From the NCBI GenBank assembly GCA_964439155.1, contig CAYTNJ010000002.1, positions 1 to 43,847 on the forward strand: DNA of 43,847 bases, given 5' to 3'. Under the pieces are notes generated by a model. It ran no database searches, was not told where the DNA came from, and saw only the letters and a program-made list of their open reading frames with translations. Positions 3,001 to 43,847 of the stretch are shown here, piece after piece (the stretch's first letter is position 1; the number at the start of each line of letters is the position of its first letter). The stretch comes from an uncultured Candidatus Peribacteria bacterium. GTDB taxonomy: Bacteria > Patescibacteriota > Gracilibacteria > Peribacterales > Peribacteraceae. Position numbers and translations under genes: made by a program.

Positions 3001-3947
3001 ATTACACCGGCGTGCTGGTACCGCTGTCGGAAAACCTCGCGTCCTCTTACGTCCCGCTGTCGGCCCCCGCCACCCCTGTACTGTCGGAGGAAAGCGGCGG
3101 TACCATGCTGTCCGACACTTATTTCGTCGTGATCACCTATACGACCGACGGCGGAGAAACGCTGCCCTCGGCCGAAGACTCCTTTACGACGACCGACAAC
3201 CATCTTCTGACCGTCGATTCGCCCGCGATATCTGGCAACGCGACCGGCTTCAACGTCTATGTCGGAACGACGACCGGAGTCACGACGCTGCAGACCGCAA
3301 CGCCTATCGGCATCGGGTCAAATTGGACCATGCCCCTGACCGGCCTTGTCGCAGGCGCCTCGCCTCCTGCGATTAACTCCACCGGCTGGGAGGTTTTCGA
3401 CACGTTCGTTCCTGACCCCATTGCGCTCGCGACCTTCACCGGCTCCGACATTGACGAAGGCTTTATTGCGACGTTCCGCGTCTGGGCGACCGCTGCCTTT
3501 GCGCTTGGACCAGGTGAAAGCGGCAACGCGGCCGTTGGGTTCAATCTCGCCATCAGCGACACCGACTTTGCGGGAATTTATGACTTTGAACCTTGGACCA
3601 TCGGGCAGGTGACGACGCGCTATCTCGCGGGGCAGGTATCCTATGCGCCTGTCGCGGGCGCGGTGGCCTATGTGCAAGACCTGACCTTTGTCATTGATGC
3701 GCCTTTGGAAACCGGCACGGCGACGAACGTTGCCATCGGCTCGGGCGGTACCACGATCAACTTCGCGGACTATCCGCAAATGAAAGCAGCGTATCACCTG
3801 CCGCCGAGCGTGCAGGTCACGGTGTCAGGTGGCACCGGCACGTCGGGGGTGGCGATCAACGTCACCACTACCGGCGCGGAGATTCATGTGTACAATGGAA
3901 GTGTCGGCGTTGCTGGCACCACGAACATCACCGTAACGGGGGTCTAA
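1..3947 (+). CDS. Host-specificity / tail-tip protein, distal part of a gene that starts at 43623 and wraps over the window ends (about 1351 aa if circularised)
   Basis: ORF 6..3947 is in frame with 43623..43847 through the 116-nt end overlap. The N-terminal GGKGG...SIYYTYATSFVYGLCEGEISGIGLMWKD resembles lambda J / RcGTA g15-type tip proteins. It follows an NlpC/P60 gene, as in GTA-like tail modules. Confidence 0.85.
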   Translation, partial: AMRPPPNRLWFGDFSATAHRNQSGGKGGVGGGGGGKNGGGSIYYTYATSFVYGLCEGEISGIGLMWKDKNRTTPAEQGMTVMNGTYPQAAWGYLETNHGYLFESRTIPATGPYTVAATYNLPFLVDNGVFSEIEMVSSAPPPPANKYSLSNQGKTYTFNAADAGKAVRLISDLDAIARPGSPVLNQTPGGALAGATYYVRNTYVTPDGETTGSAIASFVVSTNFLLTVASPEERPGITGWNVYIGASAATLKRQNASPIAIGDNFTEDPSGILPGVKPPTTNSTGGYISLDATIPAVAPYVINWDRQADAVFLRSVVFTKVGGAPALNQYSVDSSGVYTFNSGNAGNQVTVSYSAGNQNPAFQAVGYNGLAWVGASGYALGQSPNLGNHNFEVLGLGYHSVGSLPDADPSIVVTEFLSNPQWGAGFPEGKIGDLTTYQDYVCATGLLLSFELTAQTPCADVLESIALVTNSAFVWSESTLKLIPYGDEDVTGNGHTYIAPTAPLFDLDDDDFLQLNEDDDPIRLSRKRATDAINWLQMEFRDRANDYNPGMAEAKNQAFIDLYGLRPNPDSASTQTLFADATAAQASVNLMLQRQLVLNTYEFDTDFRYIVLDPMDIITITDPGLGLDRQWVRVKEIKENGDFSLTFTVEEFMSGIASAPVYAFQESSGYAANYNQDPGDVNEPIIFECPTQLATNGGLETWMAVSGPENWGGCDVWISADGDTYAQVGRISGNTRMGVLTQQLLAGDDPDLAHTLSVDLSQSFGNLISGTQADADQGNTLCYVDGELVAYASANLTESYSYDLTYLRRGMYGTTNETHAAGTKFARLDNQVFEYGYDKTQIGQTIYIKFLSFNQFGGGLQSLSEVSPYAHTIIGPPIPADVTGFTAQQHGGTVGMSWNQIPNDYGLKGYNLTYGPQGGTFDASVFLTQAERGTEMTNASVPPGSWTFYIVAVDIADQESNTPAMYDLVVTNENEVLSSRTYAPDWVQNASLPISNFFQHYTGVLVPLSENLASSYVPLSAPATPVLSEESGGTMLSDTYFVVITYTTDGGETLPSAEDSFTTTDNHLLTVDSPAISGNATGFNVYVGTTTGVTTLQTATPIGIGSNWTMPLTGLVAGASPPAINSTGWEVFDTFVPDPIALATFTGSDIDEGFIATFRVWATAAFALGPGESGNAAVGFNLAISDTDFAGIYDFEPWTIGQVTTRYLAGQVSYAPVAGAVAYVQDLTFVIDAPLETGTATNVAIGSGGTTINFADYPQMKAAYHLPPSVQVTVSGGTGTSGVAINVTTTGAEIHVYNGSVGVAGTTNITVTGV

Positions 3948-5864: not shown

Positions 5865-6146
5865 ATGAGCCTCGAGAAAGAAATAGGCGCCTTGACCGAG
5901 GCGGTGAAAAACCAAAACGAGGTCACGAAAGATCTGACGAAGCTGATTCCAGTCGTCGCCGTCCACCAAGAGAAGCACGACGATTTCGAGGAAAACTGGA
6001 AACCGAAGATCGAGCAGCACGAGAAGAATTTCAACAGGATGGGCGGTATCGTCGCCGTCCTGTCGGTGCTGGGTGGCGGCATCGTGCAGGGAGTGATCCT
6101 GTTGAAGGATTACATTGTCAGCGTTAGCAGCGGCGGGGGGCATTGA
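5865..6146 (+). CDS. Putative holin (single C-terminal TMD)
   Basis: AAGGGAG RBS 7 nt upstream. The 93-aa product has a charged N-terminal helix and a TMD (GGIVAVLSVLGGGIVQGVILL). ATGA overlap with the endolysin gene. Confidence 0.5.
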   Translation: MSLEKEIGALTEAVKNQNEVTKDLTKLIPVVAVHQEKHDDFEENWKPKIEQHEKNFNRMGGIVAVLSVLGGGIVQGVILLKDYIVSVSSGGGH

Positions 6147-6676: not shown

Positions 6677-6978
6677 TGTGGACGGCATTGGGGTTCTGGG
6701 GCCAGCTGGCGGCCGTCTCGTTCGTGGTTTGCACGCTCGCCATCGTTCATCACCGCATCGATAAAGGCGGCTATGATCGTGCGATGGCGGAAGTGGCGGC
6801 CGCAGATCAGGCCCGCAAGGACGAGGCGCAGAAACAGATTACCGACATAGGGGAGAAGCATGAAAAGATCCGCACATGGAACCGCGCGCAGGGGGGCTAT
6901 AACGCTCCTGCTAGTCCTCTGGCTGCTGCTGCCGCTGCAAGGCTGCACGCGAACGATAGTAAACCCGCCCGCCGATAA
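6676..6978 (+). CDS. i-spanin (Rz-like)
   Basis: TAATG overlap with the endolysin stop. N-terminal TMD WTALGFWGQLAAVSFVVCTLAIV followed by a charged coiled-coil region. The track ORF 6655..6978 is trimmed to the internal ATG. Confidence 0.7.
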   Translation: MWTALGFWGQLAAVSFVVCTLAIVHHRIDKGGYDRAMAEVAAADQARKDEAQKQITDIGEKHEKIRTWNRAQGGYNAPASPLAAAAAARLHANDSKPARR

Positions 6979-7111
6979 GGCTGGCCAATGCAAGGTTATA
7001 GACCCCGGCGAGGGGCCTTATACGGACGGTGTTGTTGCCGACCTTATCGACAAGCTCGTTGAAAAAATCGAAACCTGCATGGCGCTCCTTGGGTATAATC
7101 TCAATAACTGA
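6860..7111 (+). CDS. o-spanin lipoprotein (Rz1-like), overlapped architecture
   Basis: Signal peptide with lipobox LLPLQGC. Starts inside the i-spanin gene in another frame and extends past it. Confidence 0.75.
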   Translation: MKRSAHGTARRGAITLLLVLWLLLPLQGCTRTIVNPPADKAGQCKVIDPGEGPYTDGVVADLIDKLVEKIETCMALLGYNLNN

Positions 7112-7536: not shown

Positions 7537-7806
7537 TTATGCGTTTCCTTTCGCGGTGGTTGTTGCCAGCAGGTGCCGGTCTTCAATCTCTTTTAGCACG
7601 GCCTCCACGTATTTTATAAGCTCCTTCGGGTCGTGGTTCACGGCCTGCGCAGTGTAATAGATGCAGAGCAGTTCTGTCATGGCCAGCATCAGCACCGGCG
7701 CTTTCAGTTCACAGTTGCGCGCGATATGCAGGGCGGCCGTTACAAAAGCGTGCCGCTGGGTTCGGGTGTCTTCATCTTGCGAGAACGCGGTGACGATTTC
7801 GGGCAT
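7537..7806 (-). CDS. Hypothetical protein (89 aa)
   Basis: ATG preceded by AAGGAGG 5 nt upstream. The start lies inside the 3' tail of the methylase gene. Confidence 0.65.
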   Translation of the reverse strand: MPEIVTAFSQDEDTRTQRHAFVTAALHIARNCELKAPVLMLAMTELLCIYYTAQAVNHDPKELIKYVEAVLKEIEDRHLLATTTAKGNA

Positions 7807-8396
7807 TCTTCCTCCTTGAAAAGCCAATGGGTTGTGGGCGGGCCGACGTGCTTGTGATCCCAGACGGCCCACATGAAATTCATCATGCCCCCGCCGGTGG
7901 ATTCAAACTTGCCAGCCTTCTCGGACATAACGCGCCAAGTGAAAATATAGAAGCGCGCGATGGGTGTTCCTCGCCATATCGATTTGCCGCGCCCCTTGCC
8001 AGCCAGATAACTGACCGGCAGGAACATGGCGACCTTGCCGGTGGTCAGGCGCAGGGCATTTTGCACGAAGGCGATGGTATATTTGAACGGCGGGTTCGTG
8101 ATGATATTCGGGGCCAGCGGCTTATGCTCCATCAGGAAGTCCACCCCCGACTGCCCGTATCCGCGCTCCACGAGGTCGGTGCTGATAACCTCGCGGCCGA
8201 TGCCCTCGAGATAGCGGCTTATGTGGCCCATGCCGCACGCGGGCTCCCACAGGCGGCCGATGAAGGTCTCATGGTTAAAAAGAGCGTCTGTCGCCTCGTA
8301 TGGCGTGCTGTAAAAGTGATCCTTCTCCTGCCCCTCGCGGTCAACGGCAACGCCTGTCTTCCGCTGGTTCTTGACGGTGGCGGTGCTCTCCATCAT
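7740..8396 (-). CDS. N6-adenine DNA methyltransferase (motif I before motif IV)
   Basis: EPACGMG (SAM-binding motif I) and ITNPPFK (NPPF catalytic motif IV). ATGA overlap with the upstream gene at 8393..8396. Confidence 0.8.
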   Translation of the reverse strand: MMESTATVKNQRKTGVAVDREGQEKDHFYSTPYEATDALFNHETFIGRLWEPACGMGHISRYLEGIGREVISTDLVERGYGQSGVDFLMEHKPLAPNIITNPPFKYTIAFVQNALRLTTGKVAMFLPVSYLAGKGRGKSIWRGTPIARFYIFTWRVMSEKAGKFESTGGGMMNFMWAVWDHKHVGPPTTHWLFKEEECPKSSPRSRKMKTPEPSGTLL

Positions 8397-8596
8397 GGCA
8401 GGGTGTGGGGGTTGCGGCAGCGGGGGCAGACCGTGCGGTTTTTCGCGCTCCTGCGCCATACGGAATAGATCATGCCGGGCAGCAGGTAACAGCACCACAG
8501 CAGGAATTCGACCCAGCCGTTGCCCGGCATATCCGGTACCACGTCGGTGCCGCAGTTTTTGCAATGCCGCCTTTGCGCCAGATAATATTTTGTCAA
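8393..8596 (-). CDS. Small zinc-ribbon membrane protein (67 aa)
   Basis: CKNCG ... CPRC pairs flank the TMD WVEFLLWCCYLLPGMIYSVW. TTG start with AAGGAGG-N5 and a TTGA overlap with the upstream stop. Confidence 0.6.
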   Translation of the reverse strand: MTKYYLAQRRHCKNCGTDVVPDMPGNGWVEFLLWCCYLLPGMIYSVWRRSAKNRTVCPRCRNPHTLP

Positions 8597-21671: not shown

Positions 21672-22400
21672 TTATTTTTGCGGGTTTAAATCTCTTAGAA
21701 TTGCGTAACCGATCACTTCGGGGATTTGCGGGACGACCGAGTTTCCGAGGGCTTTAAGTGCAGGTGCTGGGGGGGGTAGCCCATCACTTTTGCGGTGAAG
21801 TCTGCACTCGGGTAAATTGGTTCTTCCGGGCCATTCCTCAAAAACTCCCTGTAATTGCTGCGATAGGTCGGACTGCCAAAGTATCGGCCCTTTGTACACC
21901 CCTTGTAATCGCTCGCTGCGGGGGTCGGCATATATCCAGACGCGGTCCCGTTCATGCCAGGCACCAACGTAGGAAGCCGGTATGCAATGCCACTCCGCGT
22001 CATACCCGAGCGAGGCCAAGGCCCCGAGAACCGTGCCAAGCCCTCGAGTAAGCAACCCTGCCACGTTCTCCAGCAATGCGCGTGGCCGTCCCACCATGCA
22101 AAGGGTTCGTAAGATGTACCAGAAAAGCCCTGAACGGCTGCCGGTAATTCCGGCACCTTCTCCAGCGTGTGAAATGTCCTGACAGGGGAAACCCGCCGTA
22201 ACCAAGTCCACATGCGATTCAAATTTGAGATTGGTAACATCTTCGATTATCTCCACTTCAGGCCAGTTTTTTTTCAGGACACTTTTGCAAAACTTATCAA
22301 TCTCGCAGAAGGCCACCGTCTCGAATCCGTCGGTGCGCTCAAGGCCAAGGCTGATTCCACCTATGCCGCTAAAAAGGTCGAGGACCTTTAATTTTTCCAT
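21672..22400 (-). CDS. DNA (cytosine-5) methyltransferase, short form (242 aa); frame integrity is questionable, see findings
   Basis: DLFSGIGG (motif I), GFPCQDIS (IV), ENV (VI), GAWHERDRVW (VIII-like) and LGNSVVPQ (X). A canonical motif IX string is absent from this frame but present in a nested frame. Confidence 0.8.
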   Translation of the reverse strand: MEKLKVLDLFSGIGGISLGLERTDGFETVAFCEIDKFCKSVLKKNWPEVEIIEDVTNLKFESHVDLVTAGFPCQDISHAGEGAGITGSRSGLFWYILRTLCMVGRPRALLENVAGLLTRGLGTVLGALASLGYDAEWHCIPASYVGAWHERDRVWIYADPRSERLQGVYKGPILWQSDLSQQLQGVFEEWPGRTNLPECRLHRKSDGLPPPAPALKALGNSVVPQIPEVIGYAILRDLNPQK

Positions 22401-22416
22401 TTTAAAATTCCGAAGT

Positions 22417-25140
22417 TTAAAGCAGCAGCCCGTCCGGTCTGAATTTTTCGGACGGTATAATAACTTGATTGGCGGTCGTCGCGCCAAACCTGACCAGTTT
22501 TTTAGGCTCGTTCCATTTGATTCCCTCCGCGTTGATGATTGCCTTGGCCCAGTTCGTGGCCCAAATAGTCTCCTTCAAAATGCGGCTGATGTGCATCGAC
22601 GGCCGCCGTATATAAACAAACTCCTGCGTCGTTTTAATATCGACGTTCAGCAGCGCGGCGCGCGCGTCCTGCTGGGTGTAATCCATATCCACGTATCCAA
22701 GCGCGACCTGTATCACGGTGCCGATTTGCGCCTCGTGACGCTGGCCCTTGAACGACTGCAGCACCGGTATCGTGGAGCTCATGAGGCGGTCGTACAGGCG
22801 GTCGTGGTCAGCGGCTTCGCCCACGGCCGTATGCAGCGTCCAGTCATGTTTGCGGATCCACTCCTCCGCCTCCTTCACGCTGATCTCCTTCGGGCTGTGC
22901 AGGCTATACACGCCCGCCAGCATCGGCCCGATCTGATCCGCCGCGCGCCGGTCGCGCAGAACCGTGGCGGCCGCGTCCGTGAACGTCTCGGAATTTTTCA
23001 TGATAACTTTGATATTGCTGACCGTGCGCGCGAGCAGCTGGCGCGCATATTTTTCCGTCAACGTCTCTTTGGCGAACGCCTTGAGGTCCTGAAACTGCTG
23101 CTCGGCATCAGGCGCGCGGTTTCGGCGCAGGTATAGCATCGACACCCGGCTTTCATCCGCCCGCTGCTTAATTGACGGGTTGATGGATGCGAAGGCGAAC
23201 ATGGAGCGCACCGAGTAAACGACGCCCTGACCGTCCTGCGATCCCTTGGCGATGCGGTCGCCCGACGATGATTTGCGGGCGAGCATCAGGATCTGCTGCA
23301 CGTTGATATCGTCGCGCTGGTTCTCGGTTTCCATTTCATCGAGCACCACCGGCCGCCCGTCCCATTGCAGCAGCTGGCGGATAGCGGGCTCCGTGGTACC
23401 TCCTGACAGGCGCAGGCAGATGATATCGATCATCGGCATCATGACCTTATTCAGCACGAACGATTTACCGGCCTGCGACTCGCCCGTCACCCAGATATGC
23501 GGCCGCCAGTCGAGCGCGGCGCAAAGCGGTGCCATCACCAGCCAGCCCGCCAGCAGCGTCCCTGACAGGGGATTTTCCCAAGTTGGCGCCTCGCAGATTT
23601 TGCGCAGCTTCACCGCCTCGATGCTCTCCAGCGGTTCGGGGTCGATCTCGAATATCTTCTCGGCCGCCTGATAAACATAGCGGCTGCCGATCATGAAGGG
23701 GTCCATAGGCTTGCCGTCAACCAGCAGCCTGTCGCCGCAATGTATCACCACCCGCCCTTCATCGATCCACACCCCCGCGCCCCTGATCATCGATTCCGGT
23801 TTAAAGATGCCGATTTTTTGCGACGTCTGCAGGAGCGCGTTCACGGCATAATCCCAGTCCACGTCTTTACCGCGGTCTTTTTTGAACCCCTCTTCCCACC
23901 ACGCCTTGGGGGCCAGCTCGTACAAATTGTTTTTGGTATGCCCGCCGGGGGTCAGCGCGACCATCTGCTTGCTGCCTCGCGGCAGGTAATAATATTGGCC
24001 CATATTGTGGCCCATGATCTTGAACGGCCCGTTCTCGACGGGCTCCGCCAAATTGTCTGGGTCATAGTGCGGCACCATACCCGACAAATCCTCTGGCGGG
24101 GGCGGGTTGTCGTTATCGTAGGGTATTTCGGGTTCTGGCTCCTTCAGGAGCAGCGCGCGGACGGCATCTAGGCCCTGCTGCGCTTCGAGATCATTAAAAT
24201 CGGTTGGGCGGGAGGCGACGTTGTCAAACTTCGGAGGAACGACACGCACCTTCCCGCCCAGCCTTTTCGAGACAGCTTCCGCCGCCTCAATTCCCGGGTT
24301 CCACAATAAACCCGATTCCCGCCATTCTTTCCAGCGCGGATCGTCGCCGGCAGGTAGCAGGACCAGGTCGGGGGGCCTTTTCCCCGACCGAAAAACCCAA
24401 TTATCAAAATCGGCGCATATGATATCGCCCTCTTCCGCGACCGCCTTCAGGTTGCCCGAGTCAAAGGCCACCCGAACCTCCCAGCCTGTCGCGCGGTGGA
24501 TCGTCCCGCCGGTCGCATAGCCCTCGCAGACGGCCCGCCCGCCGGTGCCGGGGATGGTGAAGAACGCGCCCTTCTTCTCCCCGCCGGTCAAAAACTTCTT
24601 TTCGCCCTTTTCGCTAATAAACTGGATGGTGCTGATGCCCTTCGGGTCGAGCGCGGGGATCATCAACAGGTTATGCAGGACGCGGAGGCCGTATGATGGC
24701 ACCCCCTTGCGCGCCAGATAGGGGTGCTGGAGCGCGTCTGTCCCCCGCGCCCACAGACGTTCCGCCTTATCGCGGGCCGCCTTTGCGCGCGCCTTGGCCT
24801 CGGCCTGCGCCACCTTCCGCCGTTCCTCGATTTTGGCTTTCAGGGCCTCGCGCTCCGTCGCCGTCATATTGGCCGACTTGGAATGCCACTTATGGAGAAC
24901 GCCGTCTTTGTAGGATTTCCACCACCCGAACGCGAACGCGCCCTCTATGGCCAGCTGGTACTCGCCGTTCAGCTTCGACCGGCTGTCGCCCAGAATATGG
25001 AACCGTCGCCGCCGGTCGTCCGCCTCGATGGGCGTATCCGTTGCGCTGCCCGCATCGGCCATCGCCGTGCGAAATTCGTCAATTAGGTCTGTCAATGGGG
25101 TATCTCCGAAGTCTGGATTCCAAGCTACCGTTCGACTCAC
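22417..25140 (-). CDS. DNA primase (TOPRIM) fused to a P-loop NTPase/helicase-like domain
   Basis: VCEGYATGGT and ICADFDNW are TOPRIM acidic motifs. Later come Walker A GESQAGKS and Walker B VVLDEME. GTG start after a G6 SD-like run. Confidence 0.8.
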   Translation of the reverse strand: MSRTVAWNPDFGDTPLTDLIDEFRTAMADAGSATDTPIEADDRRRRFHILGDSRSKLNGEYQLAIEGAFAFGWWKSYKDGVLHKWHSKSANMTATEREALKAKIEERRKVAQAEAKARAKAARDKAERLWARGTDALQHPYLARKGVPSYGLRVLHNLLMIPALDPKGISTIQFISEKGEKKFLTGGEKKGAFFTIPGTGGRAVCEGYATGGTIHRATGWEVRVAFDSGNLKAVAEEGDIICADFDNWVFRSGKRPPDLVLLPAGDDPRWKEWRESGLLWNPGIEAAEAVSKRLGGKVRVVPPKFDNVASRPTDFNDLEAQQGLDAVRALLLKEPEPEIPYDNDNPPPPEDLSGMVPHYDPDNLAEPVENGPFKIMGHNMGQYYYLPRGSKQMVALTPGGHTKNNLYELAPKAWWEEGFKKDRGKDVDWDYAVNALLQTSQKIGIFKPESMIRGAGVWIDEGRVVIHCGDRLLVDGKPMDPFMIGSRYVYQAAEKIFEIDPEPLESIEAVKLRKICEAPTWENPLSGTLLAGWLVMAPLCAALDWRPHIWVTGESQAGKSFVLNKVMMPMIDIICLRLSGGTTEPAIRQLLQWDGRPVVLDEMETENQRDDINVQQILMLARKSSSGDRIAKGSQDGQGVVYSVRSMFAFASINPSIKQRADESRVSMLYLRRNRAPDAEQQFQDLKAFAKETLTEKYARQLLARTVSNIKVIMKNSETFTDAAATVLRDRRAADQIGPMLAGVYSLHSPKEISVKEAEEWIRKHDWTLHTAVGEAADHDRLYDRLMSSTIPVLQSFKGQRHEAQIGTVIQVALGYVDMDYTQQDARAALLNVDIKTTQEFVYIRRPSMHISRILKETIWATNWAKAIINAEGIKWNEPKKLVRFGATTANQVIIPSEKFRPDGLLL

Positions 25141-25158
25141 CGAATGTAAACCCCCCGT

Positions 25159-25478
25159 TGTTTATTTTCGCAATAAACATTCTGTAAGCTGAAAAGCTGA
25201 ACGATTTCAAAACCTTTAGCCCCGTTTCAATTTGTTTATAAAATTTATACACGCGTGCGCTACCCCGCCGTGCAGGCGCGCCTGCGCATGTGCGCGTATG
25301 CATGCGCGAGCGCGCGCGTGCGCACATACGTGTCATATATATATATAAACAATAAACATTTTATTATTATTAGAGCGAAGGTGCTGAAAAATATAGATAA
25401 AATTTGTTTATTCGTTTGTTTATTGTCTGTAAACATTTAGCCTATCCCCCTGATTTATAACGATACCCCAAATAAACA
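25159..25478. repeat. Iteron field: at least 8 copies of TGTTTAT(T) / (A)ATAAACA in both orientations (origin or operator array candidate)
   Basis: Copies read at 25159-66, 25172-79 (inverted pair), 25233-39, 25345-51, 25352-58, 25405-12, 25417-24 (12-bp tandem) and 25471-78. A degenerate TGTAAACA lies at 25428-35. The noncoding DNA between the divergent arms is AT-rich. Confidence 0.7.
25246..25347. other. Alternating purine-pyrimidine (Z-DNA-prone) tract
   Basis: Hand-checked uninterrupted RY runs: 25246-25260 (15 nt), 25283-25308 (26), 25311-25333 (23) and 25334-25347 (14, the TA repeat). The tract is rich in CG/CA/TG steps. Confidence 0.75.
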
Positions 25479-25830: not shown

Positions 25831-26225
25831 TGGGCCGCCATATTGCCCCGTTCGGCGCGCTGGCCCACTTCCTGTCGAAGATAACGGGTTGTGCGGATAC
25901 CCCGGCAAAATCGGGGCCTATTTCCGCACAACGCACGTTTTACGCGTCGGGCGGCTTTATCCATGACCGCCCGCTGCCTGCGCCTGTGCTGATGGAACGC
26001 GAGACCACCGTTCCGCGCGCTGTGTGGGATAAGGTCACACGAAACGTGCTGCCAGATGGGCGGGAACTAGACGAGCGTTACCTTGAAATCGTTAAGCGAT
26101 TCACGCCCCAAGACGCACGCGAGTTCGAGGCCCTTTACATGGGGACGTGGGAACCACACGACGAACGCTGCACCTGCCGGGGCTGCGAAATGTACCGACG
26201 CAAAATAGAGGACCGCCAGCCATGA
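25830..26225 (+). CDS. Hypothetical protein (131 aa)
   Basis: Third member of the coupled chain. C-terminal CTCRGCEMY. Confidence 0.6.
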   Translation: MGRHIAPFGALAHFLSKITGCADTPAKSGPISAQRTFYASGGFIHDRPLPAPVLMERETTVPRAVWDKVTRNVLPDGRELDERYLEIVKRFTPQDAREFEALYMGTWEPHDERCTCRGCEMYRRKIEDRQP

Positions 26226-27481
26226 CCATCACGCGCGAAAACGCCGTGCGCACACCTGCGCAGCTGAAAGGCTACGAGAAGAACGCCCGCACCCACTCCA
26301 AAGACCAGGTGGCGCAGATCGTCGCCAGCATCCGCGAGTTCGGGTTCACCAACCCCCTGCTGATAGACGAGCATGACACCATCATCGCGGGCCACGGCCG
26401 CCTCGAGGCCGCCAAGATCCTCGCGCTGGGTGATATCCCCTGCGTCGTCCTGACCGGCCTGACCGACCTGCAGAAAAAGGCCCTCGTCCTCGCGGATAAC
26501 CAGCTTGCCCTGAACGCTGGCTGGGATATGAAACTGCTCACCACCGAGATCGACGCGCTGAAAAAAGGCAACTTCAACGTATCGCTGCTCGGCTTCTCCG
26601 ACCTGCAAATCGGGAAGATGTTCCCGCGCGGCGCGGCCGTCGGGGAGAACGATATCCCTGCCGAGGCGCCTGCGCTCTCCGTGCCGGGCGATATGTGGCT
26701 ATGCGGCCTGCATCGCGTGCGCTGCGGTGACTCGACGGATGCTGCGGCCGTCGGGGAGCTGTTCGGTACCGTGAAGCCGCACCTCATGGTCACCGATCCG
26801 CCCTATGGCGTGAACTATGACCCCAGCTGGCGCGACGGTCACGACGACGCAAAGAACCGCCGCACCGGCAAGGTCAAGAACGACGACCGCGCGGACTGGC
26901 GCGAAGCGTGGGCGCTCTTCCCCGGCAACATCGCCTATGTATGGCACGGCGGCCTTCACTCCGCGACCGTGCAGCTGTCCCTCGAGGCGTGCGAGTTCAA
27001 GATGCGCGCGCAAATTATCTGGAAGAAAAACCAGATGGTGTTCGGGCGCGGCGACTATCATTGGGAGCACGAGCCCTGCTGGTACGCTGTGAAAGGCACA
27101 GGCAATTGGCAAGGCGACCGGTCGCAAACGACCGTCTGGGAATTCGACAACCTGAACAAGGCGAATAATCAGGCGAAGGACAACGCGCGCACCAACCACG
27201 GCACGCAGAAACCCGTCGAAGCAATGCGCCGGCCGATAATGAATAACTCGAGCGAGGGCCAAGCGGTCTATGATCCATTCCTCGGCTCTGGTACCACGAT
27301 GATTGCGGCCGAAACGACGGGCCGCGCCTGCTATGGCATGGAGCTCGACCCGGTCTATGTCGATGTGATCGTGCGCCGCTGGCAGGCTTTCACCGGCCGC
27401 GATGCCGTGCATGCTGTGACAGGGGAGCGTTTCAATGATCGAGGATCCAAAGACACCGTCGCTGCAACTGCCACCTCCTGA
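26222..27481 (+). CDS. ParB-like nuclease domain fused to an N6A/N4C DNA methyltransferase
   Basis: The N-terminus NARTHSKDQVAQIVASIREFGFTNPLLID...IIAGHGRLEAA is ParB-like. It is followed by TDPPYG (motif IV) and VYDPFLGSGTT (motif I), a beta-class order. ATGA overlap upstream. Confidence 0.85.
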   Translation: MTITRENAVRTPAQLKGYEKNARTHSKDQVAQIVASIREFGFTNPLLIDEHDTIIAGHGRLEAAKILALGDIPCVVLTGLTDLQKKALVLADNQLALNAGWDMKLLTTEIDALKKGNFNVSLLGFSDLQIGKMFPRGAAVGENDIPAEAPALSVPGDMWLCGLHRVRCGDSTDAAAVGELFGTVKPHLMVTDPPYGVNYDPSWRDGHDDAKNRRTGKVKNDDRADWREAWALFPGNIAYVWHGGLHSATVQLSLEACEFKMRAQIIWKKNQMVFGRGDYHWEHEPCWYAVKGTGNWQGDRSQTTVWEFDNLNKANNQAKDNARTNHGTQKPVEAMRRPIMNNSSEGQAVYDPFLGSGTTMIAAETTGRACYGMELDPVYVDVIVRRWQAFTGRDAVHAVTGERFNDRGSKDTVAATATS

Positions 27482-41616: not shown

Positions 41617-42221
41617 GCACGCAGGTTTTCCCATCGCTGAAAGGACTCGGCTTCGACTGGCGGCGTAAACCGATCTGGTCGAACATTAACCAGATTGCAT
41701 CCAGCGGCAAACGCTCGACGCTGGCCCTCTGGTCGTATCCCATTTACGAGTGGGAGTTGACGTATGAATTCCTCCGCAGCAGCACGGCGAACCCCGAGTT
41801 CCAGCAGCTGCTCGGCTTCTTCAACGCGCGCGGTGGTAACTTCGACACGTTCCTGCTGGAAGATCCCGACGACTATACCGTGACGGATCAGGGCATCGGC
41901 ACCGGCGACGGCGTGGAGACAGAGTTCCAGCTTGTGCGCACGCTGGGCGGATATAGCGAACCGGTCCTTGCGCCTCATGTGATCACGAATATCAAGGCTG
42001 CAGGCGTGACCGTGGATCCAGCCGATTACACCGTATCGACGTGGGGATCCGCAACACCTGGTCTTGTGACGTTCGACACCGCGCCCGCCAACGGTGCCGC
42101 GCTGACCGCCACCTTTACCTTTTACTTCCCCGTCTATTTCCTTGACCCGAGCATTGATTTTTCGAAGTTCATGGACAAGCTGTGGGAGGCGAAGTCCGTC
42201 ATATTGAGGTCCGAGAAGTGA
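41613..42221 (+). CDS. Distal tail protein (DUF2460-like, RcGTA g12 analogue)
   Basis: FPSLKGLGFDWRRKP...SGKRST...LLGFFNARGGNFDTFLLEDPDDY pattern. ATGA overlap with the TMP gene. Confidence 0.7.
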   Translation: MSTQVFPSLKGLGFDWRRKPIWSNINQIASSGKRSTLALWSYPIYEWELTYEFLRSSTANPEFQQLLGFFNARGGNFDTFLLEDPDDYTVTDQGIGTGDGVETEFQLVRTLGGYSEPVLAPHVITNIKAAGVTVDPADYTVSTWGSATPGLVTFDTAPANGAALTATFTFYFPVYFLDPSIDFSKFMDKLWEAKSVILRSEK

Positions 42222-43099
42222 AGAACGTCTCGCCCGCATTGCTGGCCCTTATCTTTTCGCGCAAGTGCCGCGTTGCTGACCTTTACACCTTCACGCTGGC
42301 CGACGGCACGATATACCGCGCCACCACGGCCGATATCGATATCACCTTCGACGGGAACGTTTACAGCTGCGGCGGCCGCACCGGCGCGCTCTTTCAGCGC
42401 GAGGGCGAAGGCAGCGAAATCAACTGGCGCGTCGGCCTCGAGGTGGACACCCTGCAGTTCACTATCCTGCCGCGCGAAGGCACCATTGGCGGTGTAGATT
42501 TCCGCGTTGCCGCGCGCATCGGCATGTTCGACTTTGCCGACGTTCTTTTAACGCGCGCCTTCATGCCAGAGTTTGGCGACGTCTCCGAAGGCGTGGTCAC
42601 GCTGTTCAACGGGCTGGTGGGCGATATCGAGCCCGGCGGCCGCAGCCAGCTGGTCTTCACCGTCAACAGCTACACCGACCTGCTGAACGTGAACATGCCG
42701 CGCAATACCTATCAGCCCGCCTGCGTGAACACCCTCTATGACGAAGCCTGCACCGTTATCAAGGCGACGAAGGGTGTCAACAGCGCCGTTGAATCAGGAT
42801 CCACCATCACGGCCGTCAACGCGGTGCTGGCGGCGGCGACCGGATACTTTGACCGCGGATCTGTCACCTTCACCAGCGGTCAGAACAATGGCGTGGCGCG
42901 CTCCATCAAGGCATACACGCAGGGCTCGCCTTCCGCCTTCAGCTTGATTCCGCCGTTGCCGTTTACGCCGCAGGCCGCAGACACCTTCACGATTTATCCG
43001 GGCTGTGATAAAACCATGACGACGTGCCAGCAGAAGTTTGACAACCTCGAGAACTTCCGAGGCTTCCCCTTCATCCCCGTTCCGGAGACCGCAGTATGA
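42218..43099 (+). CDS. Tail hub protein (DUF2163 plus BR0599 C-terminal domain, RcGTA g13 analogue)
   Basis: GTG start in a GTGA overlap. The C-terminus FTIYPGCDKTMTTCQQKFDNLENFRGFPFIP is the BR0599 signature. Confidence 0.8.
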   Translation: MKNVSPALLALIFSRKCRVADLYTFTLADGTIYRATTADIDITFDGNVYSCGGRTGALFQREGEGSEINWRVGLEVDTLQFTILPREGTIGGVDFRVAARIGMFDFADVLLTRAFMPEFGDVSEGVVTLFNGLVGDIEPGGRSQLVFTVNSYTDLLNVNMPRNTYQPACVNTLYDEACTVIKATKGVNSAVESGSTITAVNAVLAAATGYFDRGSVTFTSGQNNGVARSIKAYTQGSPSAFSLIPPLPFTPQAADTFTIYPGCDKTMTTCQQKFDNLENFRGFPFIPVPETAV

Positions 43100-43623: not shown

Positions 43624-43847
43624 TGTTCCTCCTCGGCGGTGGTGGCGGCAAACAGGCAAATCAGGCCCCAGCGGCCTCCGGTTTGCAGATCCAGACCTCG
43701 GCTTATGGCAAGGTTATCCCCATCGTCGTGGGGGCCATGCGCACCCCCCCCAACCTGCTCTGGTATGGGGACTTCTCGGCCACGGCCCACCGGAACCAGT
43801 CAGGCGGTAAAGGCGGCGTAGGGGGCGGCGGCGGGGGCAAGAACGGC
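43623..43847 (+). CDS. Host-specificity protein, N-terminal 75 codons (continues at window position 117 after circularisation)
   Basis: TAATG overlap with the peptidase stop. The sequence from 43732 on repeats window positions 1..116. Confidence 0.85.
   Translation, partial: MFLLGGGGGKQANQAPAASGLQIQTSAYGKVIPIVVGAMRTPPNLLWYGDFSATAHRNQSGGKGGVGGGGGGKNG
43732..43847. repeat. 116-nt terminal overlap with window positions 1..116 (5 mismatches)
   Basis: Base-by-base comparison gives mismatches at window positions 12, 25, 34, 71 and 95, corresponding to 43743, 43756, 43765, 43802 and 43826. There are no indels. Confidence 0.9.

What the first reader, a model, noticed from the sequence alone, without database searches (positions are those of the whole stretch)
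25246..25347. About 100-bp alternating purine-pyrimidine (Z-DNA-prone) tract at the divergence point of the early and late arms
Four uninterrupted RY runs of 15, 26, 23 and 14 nt sit within 102 bp. They are built from CG, CA/TG and finally TA steps (gcgcatgtgcgcgtatgcatgcgcg / cgcgcgcgtgcgcacatacgtgt / catatatatatata). AT-rich iteron DNA flanks the tract on both sides.

The only ORFs here (25079..25336 and 25255..25440) translate to Arg/Cys/Ala junk. The tract is also saturated with CpG-containing palindromes: ACGCGT, GCGCGC, TGCGCA, GCATGC and ATGCAT.

This composition is not expected by chance in a phage intergenic region. It suggests a supercoil-sensitive structural element (B-Z transition or cruciform) in an origin or promoter region. 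Cytosine-5 methylation is known to favour Z-DNA in CG repeats, and the phage encodes its own C5 methylase, so the two may be functionally linked. That link is speculative.
Basis: partly seen in the sequence, partly recalled or inferred. Interest (0 to 1): 0.65.

Follow-up and report, generated by a model that had tools for sequence, protein, structure and literature searches.

The report
Z-DNA-prone core of a phage origin
A roughly 100-bp stretch of strictly alternating purines and pyrimidines is real, is conserved among related phages, and sits between facing repeat sites next to the phage's primase-helicase gene, so it is most likely the centre of the replication origin, where known origins of this type have AT-rich DNA.

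Summary
Between 25246 and 25347, 89 of 101 steps alternate purine/pyrimidine, in runs of 15, 26, 24 and 14 nt. The best window elsewhere in the genome scores 68. About 0.005 runs of 24 nt or more are expected by chance.

The tract is the 72%-GC centre of a ~320-bp AT-rich module (25159-25478). This module holds 8 of the genome's 11 TGTTTAT sites. The innermost sites face each other across the tract.

The module lies between a gene for a Toprim primase fused to a D5/SaPI-Rep-like hexameric helicase and the arm that carries a ParB-methylase gene and the terminase genes.

Every relative whose intergenic DNA could be read (primase 34-70% identical) has an equivalent tract at the same place, with its own flanking repeats. 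In more distant phages, such tracts concentrate just 3' of primase-helicase genes, again between inverted repeats. That is the layout of SaPI and P4 origins, except that their centre is AT-rich.

A thermodynamic model makes the tract the most Z-DNA-prone site in the genome (onset at sigma about -0.035). It directly adjoins the most easily melted DNA nearby.

Best reading: it is the origin core, and its supercoil-sensitive structure helps or gates opening. Origin function and Z-DNA formation are inferred, not shown. The proposed link to the C5 methylase is not supported. I rate it a new variant of a known kind, of moderate to high interest.

The parts
25246..25347 (.). Alternating purine-pyrimidine tract: four runs of 15, 26, 24 and 14 nt, ending in (TA)7
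   Evidence: 89 of 101 steps alternate, against a best of 68 elsewhere in the genome.
25269..25332 (.). Segment predicted to adopt Z-form at sigma -0.06 (64 bp). Nucleation is predicted at 25310-25325 and 25277-25308.
   Evidence: using the B-Z energies of Table 1 in PMC3024258.
25334..25424 (.). (TA)7, two repeat sites, (TTA)4 and further AT-rich DNA. This is the most easily melted stretch in the surrounding 5 kb, and it directly adjoins the tract.
   Evidence: (simple melting model). The same (TA)n/(TAA)n element is present in L001-L004, L012, L017, L093 and L176.
25233..25239 (+). Inner left repeat site TGTTTAT, pointing toward the tract
   Evidence: The same arrangement is seen in L001.
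25345..25358 (-). Two inner right repeat sites TGTTTAT (25345-25351 and 25352-25358), pointing toward the tract
   Evidence: In the window/L001 alignment, the block from these repeats through (TA)n and the first 60 nt of the tract is 83-93% identical, against about 40-50% in the flanks.
25159..25179 (.). Outer left repeat pair: 25159-25165 (+) and 25173-25179 (-)
25405..25478 (.). Outer right repeat sites: 25405-25411 (+), 25417-25423 (+) and 25472-25478 (-)
22417..25095 (-). Primase-helicase gene, the putative initiator. It has an N-terminal Toprim primase and a C-terminal hexameric helicase. The likely start is TTG at 25095.
   Evidence: phrog_35358 DNA primase, E = 9e-133. Toprim domain homologous to P4 alpha, E = 8e-13. 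AlphaFold2 model with Foldseek matches to SCCmec Cch, NrS-1 C-terminal region, poxvirus D5/E5, SaPI5 PriRep5 and PriRep1-dsDNA, E = 4e-9 to 1e-6. The start is inferred from the family N-terminus.
25122..25150 (-). Weak sigma-70-like promoter for the primase operon: -35 TTTACA, 17-nt spacer, -10 TAGCTT. It lies between the tract and the gene.
   Evidence: Read from the sequence. Comparable TTGACR-17-TAnnnT elements sit upstream of the gene in L001, L003 and L010. It was not reported by the consensus scan, so this part is an inference.
26147..27481 (+). ParB_N + N6/N4 DNA methylase gene, a conserved neighbour of the module on the packaging arm
   Evidence: Homologues flank the module in L002, L004, L010, L017, L071 and L176.

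Best explanation
The tract is the central spacer of the phage's replication origin.

**The module.** The ~320-bp module at 25159-25478 consists of TGTTTAT repeats (iterons, the short repeated initiator-binding sites of this kind of origin) in both orientations. The innermost repeats face each other across the tract. Beside them lies an AT-rich (TA)7/(TTA)4 stretch that should unwind easily.

**Proposed mechanism.**
1. The adjacent gene encodes a Toprim primase fused to a self-loading hexameric helicase of the D5 / SaPI-Rep / Cch kind.
2. By analogy with SaPI Rep and P4 alpha, this protein binds the iterons and assembles on both sides of the centre.
3. Known origins of this type have an AT-rich centre. 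This lineage instead has a 72%-GC alternating purine-pyrimidine tract.
4. Under negative superhelical stress the tract is predicted to flip to left-handed Z-DNA. Stress would come from gyrase and from the divergent transcription on either side.
5. The flip would place B-Z junctions at the TATA/(TA)n borders, next to the inner iterons and the easily melted DNA. In this way it either helps opening or gates it according to superhelical state.

**Shown.**
- The tract and its statistics.
- Its conservation in relatives.
- The facing-iteron architecture.
- The helicase fold of the neighbouring protein.
- The predicted Z-DNA propensity.

**Inferred.**
- Origin activity.
- Protein-iteron binding.
- Z-DNA formation in vivo and its role.
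For: **1. Conservation of kind and place.** In all nine lineages with a full-length primase relative (34-70% identity) whose intergenic DNA could be read, the most strongly alternating 50-nt window of the whole 4.8-43.8 kb sequence (the window, and fetched loci of 4.8-14.7 kb) falls in the same intergenic module.
- Scores out of 49 steps: window 47, L001 46, L004 45, L017 45, L003 44, L176 42, L002 41, L010 41, L007 38.
- Background maxima in other loci are 32-40.

**2. Purifying selection.** In the window/L001 alignment, the block from the iterons through (TA)n and the first 60 nt of the tract is 83-93% identical. The flanks are about 40-50% identical.

**3. Lineage-specific repeats.** Each lineage has its own repeat flanking the tract: TGTTTAT, ATATAGAC, CATATTAGAC, AATATAC, TTTCTGACA or TTCTGCTATA.

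**4. Distant phages show the same layout.** In phages that share only the Toprim domain, alternating runs of at least 15 nt are 7-10 times enriched at +2.0 to +3.5 kb from the primase start, that is, just 3' of the gene. Twenty-one of 34 such runs fall there. They lie between inverted iterons in L057, L067, L071, L076, L062 and L085.

**5. An unbiased pattern scan agrees.** A scan of IMG/VR (a public collection of viral contigs) for TATATA-N(0-30)-GCGCGCACGCGCAC gave 22 loci.
- Several have iterons flanking the tract.
- Some lie immediately 3' of unrelated replicases: Toprim-VapE (L189), CHC2 primase/helicase (L186) and NrS-1-like prim-pol (L198).
- One lies upstream of a DnaB-like helicase operon (L192).

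**6. The neighbouring protein has an initiator-helicase fold**, and its Toprim domain is homologous to P4 alpha.

**7. The layout matches characterised origins.**
- The SaPI origin lies immediately downstream of rep and has 6-12 iterons. Its centre is AT-rich, with at least two iterons on each side pointing in opposite directions. Its Rep is a self-loading helicase (PMC9371898).
- P4 ori lies in a divergent intergenic region, and crr (P4's second cis-acting replication region) lies just 3' of alpha.

**8. Thermodynamics.** The tract is the most Z-prone site of the genome. It directly adjoins the easiest-melting DNA in the surrounding 5 kb.

**9. Negative control.** In 614 kb around relatives embedded in bacterial genomes, alternating runs occur only at background level.
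Against: - No experiment and no replication signal is available. GC skew shows no switch at the tract.
- A 72%-GC centre is the opposite of what an unwinding centre should be. The tract could equally be a passive clamp or spacer.
- The module always sits at the boundary between the replication genes and a downstream operon, often the packaging arm. Position alone therefore does not separate an origin from a late-operon control region or a packaging site.
- In L004 the module is 1.9 kb from the primase gene.
- Some relatives (L012, L020, L079, L093) keep (TAA)n plus repeats but lack the GC-rich tract. The tract is therefore dispensable for this origin type.
- The recurrence of GCGCGCACGCGCAC and CCCGCAC units hints at sequence-specific recognition rather than pure structure.
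- The predicted onset of -0.035 to -0.04 is beyond the unconstrained superhelicity usually assumed in vivo (my own knowledge). Z-DNA formation may therefore need transcription-driven stress.
Confidence: 0.5

Rival explanations
1. The module is a transcription-control region. The repeats are operators for a phage regulator of the divergent early and late promoters. The GC-rich alternating tract is a spacer or insulator, or a supercoil-sensitive promoter element (TATATA as a -10 box followed by a GC-rich discriminator). It is not an origin component.
For: - The module always lies at the head of an operon: the window, L004 (at the divergence point, 1.9 kb from the primase gene) and L062, L067, L071 and L057.
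- A promoter-like element for the primase operon lies within the module.
- In Rahmouni and Wells' twin-domain work (my own knowledge), the region between divergent promoters is where transcription-driven negative supercoiling, and therefore Z-DNA, is expected.
Against: - The consensus scan found no sigma-70-type promoter on the tract.
- Loci aligned at the TATA/GC junction show no conserved -35 element.
- Six to eleven repeats arranged with dyad symmetry around a 65-120-bp spacer resemble characterised origins more than operators.
- The tract adjoins replicase genes of four unrelated families.
Confidence: 0.2
2. The module is a packaging signal (pac or cos). The repeats bind the small terminase or the ParB-like protein, and the central tract is the cleavage region, as in P1 pac or lambda cosB-cosN.
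For: - The module heads the arm that carries ParB-methylase, TerS (small terminase) and TerL (large terminase) in the window, L002-L004, L010 and L176.
- It lies about 320 nt upstream of TerS in L067 and upstream of packaging genes in L183, L184, L193 and L197.
- Several short contigs break near it, and L001 starts with an adapter remnant 71 nt from the repeats.
- Repeats flanking a central cut region is the layout of P1 pac (my own knowledge).
Against: - Long contigs read straight through the module, and the window assembles as a circle broken elsewhere.
- Distance to TerS varies from 0.3 to 2.1 kb with different genes in between. These include a holin gene in L057.
- In L062 the module lies between the primase and an SF2 helicase gene.
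- Terminase families differ (Terminase_3, Terminase_6C, P22-type, Terminase_2, Terminase_4) while the core stays the same.
- L003 and L007 share the ATATAGA repeat but have unrelated TerS candidates. Their primase C-terminal domains are among the most similar between lineages, at 52-54%.
Confidence: 0.1
3. The tract is an array of binding sites (GCGCAC / CCGCAC / GCGCAT units) for a conserved host or phage protein. On this reading the purine-pyrimidine alternation is a by-product of the motif.
For: - The core GCGCGCACGCGCAC or CGCGCGCACGCG recurs in L001, L003, L010, L064, L068 and L085, and in genomes of 40-63% GC.
- Non-alternating CCCGCAC units are shared by L001-L004 and L010.
- The units show strand asymmetry.
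Against: - Under an alternation constraint with only CG and CA/TG steps, the sequence space is small, so shared 12-14-mers are expected.
- Tracts in L056 and L062 are (CA)n/(TA)n with no GCGCAC.
- In the first part of the window/L001 tract alignment, transitions outnumber transversions 6 to 4. In the flanks the counts are 23 transitions and 63 transversions. This weakly favours preservation of the alternation.
- The adjacent replicases are unrelated, so no common phage-encoded reader is evident.
Confidence: 0.1
4. The tract is neutral low-complexity DNA, for example a slippage-generated expansion of a dinucleotide-like repeat in a tolerant intergenic region. It has no function of its own.
For: - Microsatellite-like repeats, (TA)n, (TAA)n, (CTAT)n and (CTTA)n, lie next to the tract in several relatives.
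- Some relatives lack the GC-rich tract.
Against: - Position and kind are conserved across primase identities of 34-70%.
- The tract is 83% identical between the window and L001, where the flanks are about 45% identical.
- It recurs beside unrelated replicases.
- It is identical in independent contigs of the same phage, L004-L006 and L007-L009.
Confidence: 0.04

Closest known systems
SaPI replication origins served by self-loading Rep / Pri-Rep helicases (Staphylococcus aureus pathogenicity islands; PMC9371898)
   Same: - An intergenic cluster of 6-12 short iterons lies next to the initiator-helicase gene.
- At least two iterons on each side of a central region point in opposite directions.
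- The initiator is a hexameric helicase, in SaPI5 fused to a primase.
- The window's protein model matches PriRep5 (7ola) and PriRep1-dsDNA (7pds) by Foldseek.
- The distant group (L057, L067, L071, L076) even places the module immediately 3' of the gene, as in SaPIs.
   Different: - The SaPI centre is AT-rich. Here the centre is a 72%-GC alternating purine-pyrimidine tract of 65-105 bp, with the AT-rich (TA)n/(TAA)n element beside it.
- The primase domain here is Toprim, and sequence similarity to the SaPI Reps is undetectable.
- In the window's lineage the module lies upstream of the gene in a divergent region, not downstream.
Satellite phage P4 alpha primase-helicase with ori and crr
   Same: - The Toprim domain is homologous (BLASTP E = 8e-13).
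- The L071-type relatives have the full P4-alpha domain set: Toprim_3, D5_N, an SF3 ATPase domain and Pox_D5.
- P4 ori lies in a divergent intergenic region, and crr lies immediately 3' of alpha. Both carry 8-bp type-1 iterons in both orientations. The modules found here occupy these same two positions.
   Different: - P4 ori and crr contain no alternating tract. The longest run in the whole P4 genome is 12 nt.
- The helicase half of the window's protein is not recognised by Pfam models.
Iteron origins of theta-replicating plasmids and lambdoid phages (for example RK2 oriV or lambda ori): iterons, an AT-rich unwinding element and an adjacent GC-rich segment
   Same: The three components sit side by side: repeats, easily melted AT-rich DNA and a GC-rich segment of unclear role. 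This comparison rests on my own knowledge of these origins and on reviews listed that I did not read in detail.
   Different: - Those origins use dedicated Rep or O initiators together with the host DnaA and DnaB.
- Their GC-rich segments are not long alternating purine-pyrimidine tracts.
- Their GC-rich segments are not placed between facing iterons.
Z-DNA-forming inserts in supercoiled plasmids, such as (CG)n and (CA)n tracts and the pBR322 14-17-bp sites analysed by SIBZ/Z-Hunt (PMC3024258)
   Same: The sequence class and predicted behaviour are the same. With the same energy table, onset for the tract is sigma -0.033 to -0.041, and 50-64 bp are in Z-form at sigma -0.05 to -0.06.
   Different: - Those are engineered or incidental sites with no assigned function.
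- This tract is a natural, conserved element of 60-100 bp at a defined functional position.
Protelomerase target sites of linear plasmid-prophages (N15 telRL, with the centre TACGCGCGTA; from memory)
   Same: A short TA/CG alternating core lies in a phage intergenic region. L067, L071 and L076 contain CGCGTATA-type cores.
   Different: - Tel sites are near-perfect 40-56-bp palindromes and need a protelomerase gene.
- The window tract is not a perfect palindrome.
- No protelomerase or tyrosine recombinase was found among the ORFs scanned.

Membership tests
Iteron origin of a self-loading primase/helicase initiator (SaPI ori / P4 ori-crr type) | An adjacent gene encodes an initiator with a hexameric helicase domain, with or without a primase domain | tested here: met
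   - PHROG DNA primase match, E = 9e-133.
- Toprim domain homologous to P4 alpha.
- AlphaFold2 model with Foldseek matches to Cch, NrS-1 C-terminal region, D5/E5, PriRep5 and PriRep1, E = 4e-9 to 1e-6.
- Walker A motif GESxAGKS is conserved in the family alignment.
Iteron origin of a self-loading primase/helicase initiator (SaPI ori / P4 ori-crr type) | A cluster of short repeated sites (iterons) confined to one intergenic region | tested here: met
   Eight of 11 TGTTTAT copies lie in 25159-25478, and 0 of 100 shuffles reached 11 copies. Each relative has its own locally confined 7-10-mer repeat.
Iteron origin of a self-loading primase/helicase initiator (SaPI ori / P4 ori-crr type) | Iterons on both sides of a central region, pointing in opposite directions | tested here: met
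   The window has 25233 (+), then the tract, then 25345 (-) and 25352 (-). L001 is the same. L057, L067, L076, L177, L186 and L189 show ++ | tract | --. Dyad symmetry z-scores range from -2.8 to -6.5.
Iteron origin of a self-loading primase/helicase initiator (SaPI ori / P4 ori-crr type) | The central region is AT-rich and easily melted | tested here: not met
   The DNA between the inner iterons is the alternating tract, with a 73%-GC core. AT-rich (TA)7 and (TTA)4 lie at and beyond its right edge, and they form the easiest-melting site nearby.
Iteron origin of a self-loading primase/helicase initiator (SaPI ori / P4 ori-crr type) | The initiator binds the iterons and the region supports replication | not testable with these tools
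   This needs EMSA or footprinting, plasmid replication assays and marker-frequency analysis.
Z-DNA-forming sequence | An alternating purine-pyrimidine run of about 12 bp or more, made mostly of CG and CA/TG steps | tested here: met
   Runs of 26 and 24 nt are separated by one base. In total, 89 of 101 steps alternate.
Z-DNA-forming sequence | A B-Z transition is predicted within the physiological range of superhelical density | tested here: met
   A single-transition model with published energies gives an onset of sigma -0.033 for a 43.8-kb domain and -0.039 to -0.041 for a 5-kb domain. At sigma -0.06, 64 bp are in Z-form with dG of -25 kcal/mol. This is a model only. It includes no competition among several sites and no bound proteins.
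Z-DNA-forming sequence | Left-handed conformation demonstrated physically | not testable with these tools
   This needs 2D gels, Z-alpha or antibody binding, or chemical probing.
Cruciform-forming perfect inverted repeat | Long, near-perfect dyad symmetry within the tract itself | tested here: inconclusive
   The fold of 25228-25362 gives -36 kcal/mol and z = -2.8, but the pairing is anchored by the flanking iterons. Inverted repeats inside the tract are 73-92% complementary. Relatives L001, L002 and L004 show z-scores near 0.
Sigma-70 promoter with a GC-rich discriminator | -35 and -10 hexamers at 16-18 bp spacing, positioned on the TATA/GC junction | tested here: not met
   The scan reports no site on the tract. 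Loci anchored at the TATA-GC junction show no conserved -35 element.
pac/cos packaging site | A fixed position relative to the small-terminase gene, co-variation with the terminase type, and physical genome ends at the site | tested here: inconclusive
   Position relative to TerS varies and terminase families differ. Long contigs and the circular window assembly span the site. Read-terminus data are not available.
Protelomerase target (tel) site | A near-perfect palindrome of 40 bp or more, plus a protelomerase gene in the genome | tested here: not met
   There is no perfect palindrome. No protelomerase or tyrosine-recombinase domain was found in the ORFs scanned. Not every small ORF was scanned.

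The most novel reading that the evidence does not exclude
A widespread class of phage replication origins may use a Z-DNA-prone alternating purine-pyrimidine core where other origins use an AT-rich unwinding element, or may use both together.

In this reading, the core sits between facing iterons beside self-loading primase-helicases of several unrelated families. The supercoil-driven B-Z transition and its extruded-base junctions create or gate the entry site for the helicase.

If true, this would be a natural, selected function for left-handed DNA in prokaryotic replication initiation.
Probability: 0.15. Interest if true: 0.85.

Novelty: new variant of a known kind. Interest (0 to 1): 0.6.

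Why it matters
**Biological question.** Z-DNA in bacteria and their viruses has been known almost only from engineered inserts, so whether it has any selected function there is an old open question. This work identifies a natural, conserved element of 60-100 bp at a precise and experimentally accessible position: between facing iterons next to the initiator gene. It recurs in many phage lineages with different replicases.

**Direct test.** Alternation-preserving and alternation-breaking substitutions in a small ori plasmid would test whether a non-B DNA transition takes part in origin opening or in sensing superhelicity.

**Practical use.** The signature of lineage-specific inverted repeats around a TATA-(CG/CA)n core could help locate origins in uncultivated phage genomes. 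It may also explain assembly breaks at such sites.

Tried and rejected
- **Near-identity DNA search of the region in GenBank phages.** No match. Only distant primase relatives of 37% identity or less are present there.
- **Single-protein scan of IMG/VR.** It found nothing. An alignment-based scan was needed.
- **Metagenome scan with the conserved 17-mer TATATATGACACGTATG.** It returned 75 hits, all chance matches with no tract or repeats. No extra close relatives could therefore be obtained for a transition/transversion test.
- **BLAST of a synthetic alternating query against phages.** It returned nothing, presumably because of low-complexity masking.
- **tblastn with the replicases of L071, L186 and L198.** The aim was to find isolated phages with known termini. 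Only distant partial hits were found.
- **Rfam.** Only sub-threshold eukaryotic miRNA hits, which are chance matches. A structured-RNA reading was rejected.
- **Promoter on the tract.** Not found.
- **Cluster of methylation sites, or a C5-methylase link.** Rejected.
- **GC skew as an origin indicator.** Uninformative.
- **Protelomerase site.** Rejected: there is no perfect palindrome and no such enzyme was found.
- **Literature searches.** Searches on Z-DNA or alternating tracts in phage origins, and on the core sequence itself, found no prior description. The library covers open-access papers only.
Full report
**1. The observation**

The window is a complete or nearly complete phage genome of about 43.8 kb and about 60% GC. 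Its two ends overlap imperfectly, which indicates a circular assembly.

Minus-strand replication and recombination genes occupy 7.1-25.1 kb. They include a YqaJ-like exonuclease, an SF2 helicase, a C5 methylase and a primase. Plus-strand packaging, head and tail genes run from 25.5 kb round to 7 kb. They include a ParB-methylase fusion, the small terminase (TerS), a Terminase_3 large terminase (TerL), the portal and GTA-like tail proteins.

The finding therefore does lie at the divergence of the two arms.

The next longest run in the genome is 15 nt.
- Eighty-nine of 101 steps alternate. The best window elsewhere has 68.
- Shuffles of the tract average 50.9 and reach at most 71.
- About 0.005 runs of at least 24 nt are expected in the whole window.
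- The core is 73% GC, set in flanks of 26-34% GC.
- The two local ORFs translate to low-complexity peptides.
- Rfam finds nothing meaningful.

**2. Anatomy of the surroundings**

Eight of the genome's 11 TGTTTAT heptamers lie in 25159-25478, in both orientations. The sites nearest the tract face each other across it: 25233 (+) on the left, and 25345 (-) and 25352 (-) on the right.

To the right of the tract come (TA)7 and (TTA)4.

The primase gene most likely starts at TTG 25095. This gives the N-terminus MTDLIDEFRTAMA, which matches the family N-terminus. A GGAGA ribosome-binding site and a weak TTTACA-17-TAGCTT promoter-like element lie between the tract and the gene. The promoter is an inference, because the consensus scan did not report it.

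**3. The neighbouring protein**

- The ~890-aa protein matches phage "DNA primase" families (phrog_35358, E = 9e-133).
- Its Toprim domain is homologous to that of P4 alpha (E = 8e-13).
- It has conserved Walker A and Walker B motifs.
- An AlphaFold2 model (mean pLDDT 79.5) matches hexameric initiator or replicative helicases over its C-terminal half. The matches are SCCmec Cch, the NrS-1 C-terminal region, poxvirus D5/E5, SaPI5 PriRep5 and PriRep1 bound to dsDNA (Foldseek E = 4e-9 to 1e-6).

It is therefore a primase fused to a helicase of the kind that loads itself at origins of mobile elements.

**4. Relatives with a full-length primase homologue**

No close relative is present in GenBank phages or IMG/VR. 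A protein search found homologues at 70-36% identity, and their contigs were fetched.

All share the layout: the primase arm diverges from an arm carrying small genes, the ParB-methylase and the terminase. The terminase and portal types differ between them: Terminase_3, Terminase_6C or a P22-type portal.

In every lineage whose intergenic DNA is available, the most strongly alternating 50-nt window of the whole sequence searched (4.8-43.8 kb) falls in the homologous intergenic region.

| Locus | Alternating steps (of 49) |
|---|---|
| window | 47 |
| L001 | 46 |
| L004 | 45 |
| L017 | 45 |
| L003 | 44 |
| L176 | 42 |
| L002 | 41 |
| L010 | 41 |
| L007 | 38 |
| background maxima in other loci | 32-40 |

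Read on the primase-sense strand, the modules share this order:

1. lineage-specific repeats
2. (CTAT)n, (TAA)n or (TA)n
3. a 55-100-bp GC-rich tract built from GCGCAC, GCGCAT and CCGCAC units
4. often a G-run
5. repeats again

This order is seen. The repeats differ by lineage: TGTTTAT, ATATAGAC, CATATTAGAC, AATATAC, TTTCTGACA and TTCTGCTATA.

The window and L001 have primases 70% identical. Between them, the block from the repeats through (TA)n and the first 60 nt of the tract is 83-93% identical, while the surrounding intergenic DNA is about 40-50% identical. In the first part of the tract, transitions outnumber transversions 6 to 4. In the flanks the counts are 23 transitions and 63 transversions. 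The numbers are small and only suggestive.

Some more distant relatives (L012, L020, L079, Microcystis phage Mwe-JY13) keep (TAA)n and repeats but lack the GC-rich tract.

**5. More distant phages**

An alignment-based scan of IMG/VR returned 80 loci. In those that share only the Toprim domain, alternating runs of at least 15 nt are concentrated at +2.0 to +3.5 kb from the primase start, immediately 3' of the gene. Twenty-one of 34 such runs fall there. The density is about 20-28 per 100 kb, against 0-3 per 100 kb in most other bins.

There the tracts lie between repeats arranged as direct copies on one side and inverted copies on the other:

- L057 and L085: GTCCCAC
- L067: GGCACACC
- L071 and L056: GGCACAAG
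- L076: ATCCGAC
- L062: TGTAACA

These arrangements are shown. Dyad symmetry z-scores reach -6.5.

The L071 protein has the full P4-alpha domain set, and the gene after the module is again a ParB-methylase.

By contrast, 614 kb around relatives embedded in bacterial genomes show only background levels.

**6. An unbiased pattern scan**

I scanned IMG/VR for TATATA-N(0-30)-GCGCGCACGCGCAC, with no reference to any gene. The scan gave 22 loci, about 15 of them distinct, in genomes of 40-63% GC.

- At least half have locally confined repeats around the tract. In L177, L178, L186 and L189 these are inverted across it.
- The tract lies immediately 3' of a Toprim-VapE protein (L189), a CHC2-zinc-finger primase/helicase (L186) and an NrS-1-like prim-pol (L198 group). 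It lies upstream of a DnaB-like helicase operon in L192.
- In L183, L184, L193 and L197 it lies upstream of packaging genes.

The element is therefore not tied to one replicase family. It marks the boundary next to replication genes in many phages.

**7. Physical propensity**

I used the B-Z energies tabulated in PMC3024258 in a single-transition model.

- The tract is the most Z-prone site in the genome.
- Predicted onset is sigma -0.033 in a 43.8-kb domain and -0.039 to -0.041 in a 5-kb domain.
- At sigma -0.05, 50 bp are predicted to be in Z-form. At -0.06, 64 bp (25269-25332) are, with dG of -25 kcal/mol.
- A crude melting model makes the DNA directly to the right (25335-25424) the easiest to open in the surrounding 5 kb.

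These calculations ignore competition among several sites and ignore bound proteins.

**8. Interpretation**

The architecture is that described for SaPI origins. Those lie immediately downstream of rep and have 6-12 iterons. At least two iterons on each side of the central region point in opposite directions. Their Rep is a self-loading helicase whose winged-helix domain reads the iterons (PMC9371898).

It also matches P4. The annotated P4 ori lies in a divergent intergenic region, and crr lies just 3' of alpha. Both carry iterons in both orientations.

The difference is the centre. It is AT-rich in SaPIs, and P4 has no alternating tract at all (longest run 12 nt). Here the centre is GC-rich and alternating.

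I therefore read the tract as the core of the replication origin (confidence about 0.5). The Z-DNA transition is a plausible but unproven part of how the origin opens or senses superhelicity. I put the probability of the strong version of that idea at about 0.15.

**9. Rivals**

- **Transcription-control region (0.2).** The module always heads an operon, and in L004 it is 1.9 kb from the primase gene. However, no promoter is detectable on the tract, and the repeat geometry is origin-like.
- **Packaging signal (0.1).** The module often precedes the packaging arm and lies 320 nt upstream of TerS in L067. Some short contigs break near it. Against this:
  - Long contigs and the circular window assembly span the module.
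  - Its distance to TerS, and the genes in between, vary. A holin gene intervenes in L057, and in L062 the next gene is a helicase.
  - Terminase families differ.
  - L003 and L007 share a repeat motif although their TerS candidates are unrelated.
- **Sequence-specific protein-binding array (0.1).** The recurring GCGCGCACGCGCAC and CCCGCAC units hint at this. It is weakened by (CA)n/(TA)n versions of the tract and by the small sequence space available under alternation.
- **Neutral low-complexity DNA (0.04).** Conservation argues against it.

**10.

- A homologue of the window's C5 methylase was found in only one fetched locus (L016), which has no tract.
- L007 and L010 carry a different C5 enzyme, and L007 has the weakest tract.
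- The strongest tracts have no C5 gene in the fetched flanks.
- GCGC and CGCG are abundant throughout the genome.

The link is therefore unsupported. It cannot be excluded, because most loci are only partial genomes.

**11. Novelty**

Four literature searches, and a search for the core sequence itself, found no description of alternating purine-pyrimidine cores in phage or plasmid iteron origins. The searchable library is limited to open-access papers.

I classify the element as a new variant of a known kind: an iteron origin of a self-loading primase-helicase. Interest is 0.6.

Noticed in passing
window 1-80 and 43768-43847: The two ends of the window overlap imperfectly. About 45 nt are shared with one mismatch, inside the N-terminus of the 1313-aa tail-fibre-like ORF at 6-3947. 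This suggests a circular assembly, with strain variation at the junction.
   Followed up: partly
window 7740-8564 (-), 21672-22487 (-), 26147-27481 (+): The phage carries three DNA methyltransferase genes: a phrog_799 methylase, a short C5 methylase and a ParB_N + N6/N4 fusion. The C5 methylase is 271 aa, and only the N-terminal half of the Pfam model is matched.
   Followed up: partly
L001 1-25: The closest relative's contig begins with an Illumina TruSeq adapter remnant joined to phage DNA 71 nt before the (TGTTTAT)2 repeats. Several other short contigs (L006, L175) also break near the module. This could reflect fragment ends, a coverage drop at the GC-rich/AT-rich junction, or PCR duplicates.
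   Followed up: no
window 25099-25121; L001 320-349; L002 5975-6000; L003 5940-5968; L007 and L010 about 5960-6000: A conserved leader motif, GACTTCGGAG or GACTTGGGAG, lies just upstream of the primase start codon across relatives. It could be part of the ribosome-binding region or a translational operator.
   Followed up: no
L001 45-66; L017 3218-3260; L012 about 3730-3785; window 25360-25373: Tetra- and trinucleotide microsatellites, (CTAT)n, (CTTA)n and (TAA/TAT)n, recur next to the module. This includes relatives that lack the GC-rich tract.
   Followed up: partly
L068 7030-7052 and 7096-7118: One IMG/VR phage has a 66-bp direct repeat. Each copy carries an identical 23-nt alternating run (ACATGTACGCGCGCACGCGCGCG), and a third 24-nt run lies at 6967-6990.
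   Followed up: no
L004 1-1371; L192 460-3225: Two relatives carry intein or LAGLIDADG insertions. One is in an 881-aa packaging-arm protein (L004). The other is in a DnaB-like helicase (L192).
   Followed up: no
window 42182-43099: The tail module contains phiJL001 Gp84-like and BR0599 domains, which are GTA-like. The best GenBank relative also carries a GcrA-like regulator gene. Together these suggest an alphaproteobacterial host.
   Followed up: no
L178 about 4215 and 4300; L185 about 11600; L193 about 9020: A conserved GTAGCTCTA element lies 45-60 nt from the alternating tract in three otherwise different IMG/VR phages. In L178 it is also present as an inverted copy on the other side.
   Followed up: no
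window 25151-25156 and 25263-25266; L002 5770-5815; L003 5727-5750; L017 3350-3356; L177; L186: Runs of 4-7 G on the primase-sense strand follow the tract in many relatives. Their meaning is unknown; R-loop or G-quadruplex propensity is one possibility.
   Followed up: no
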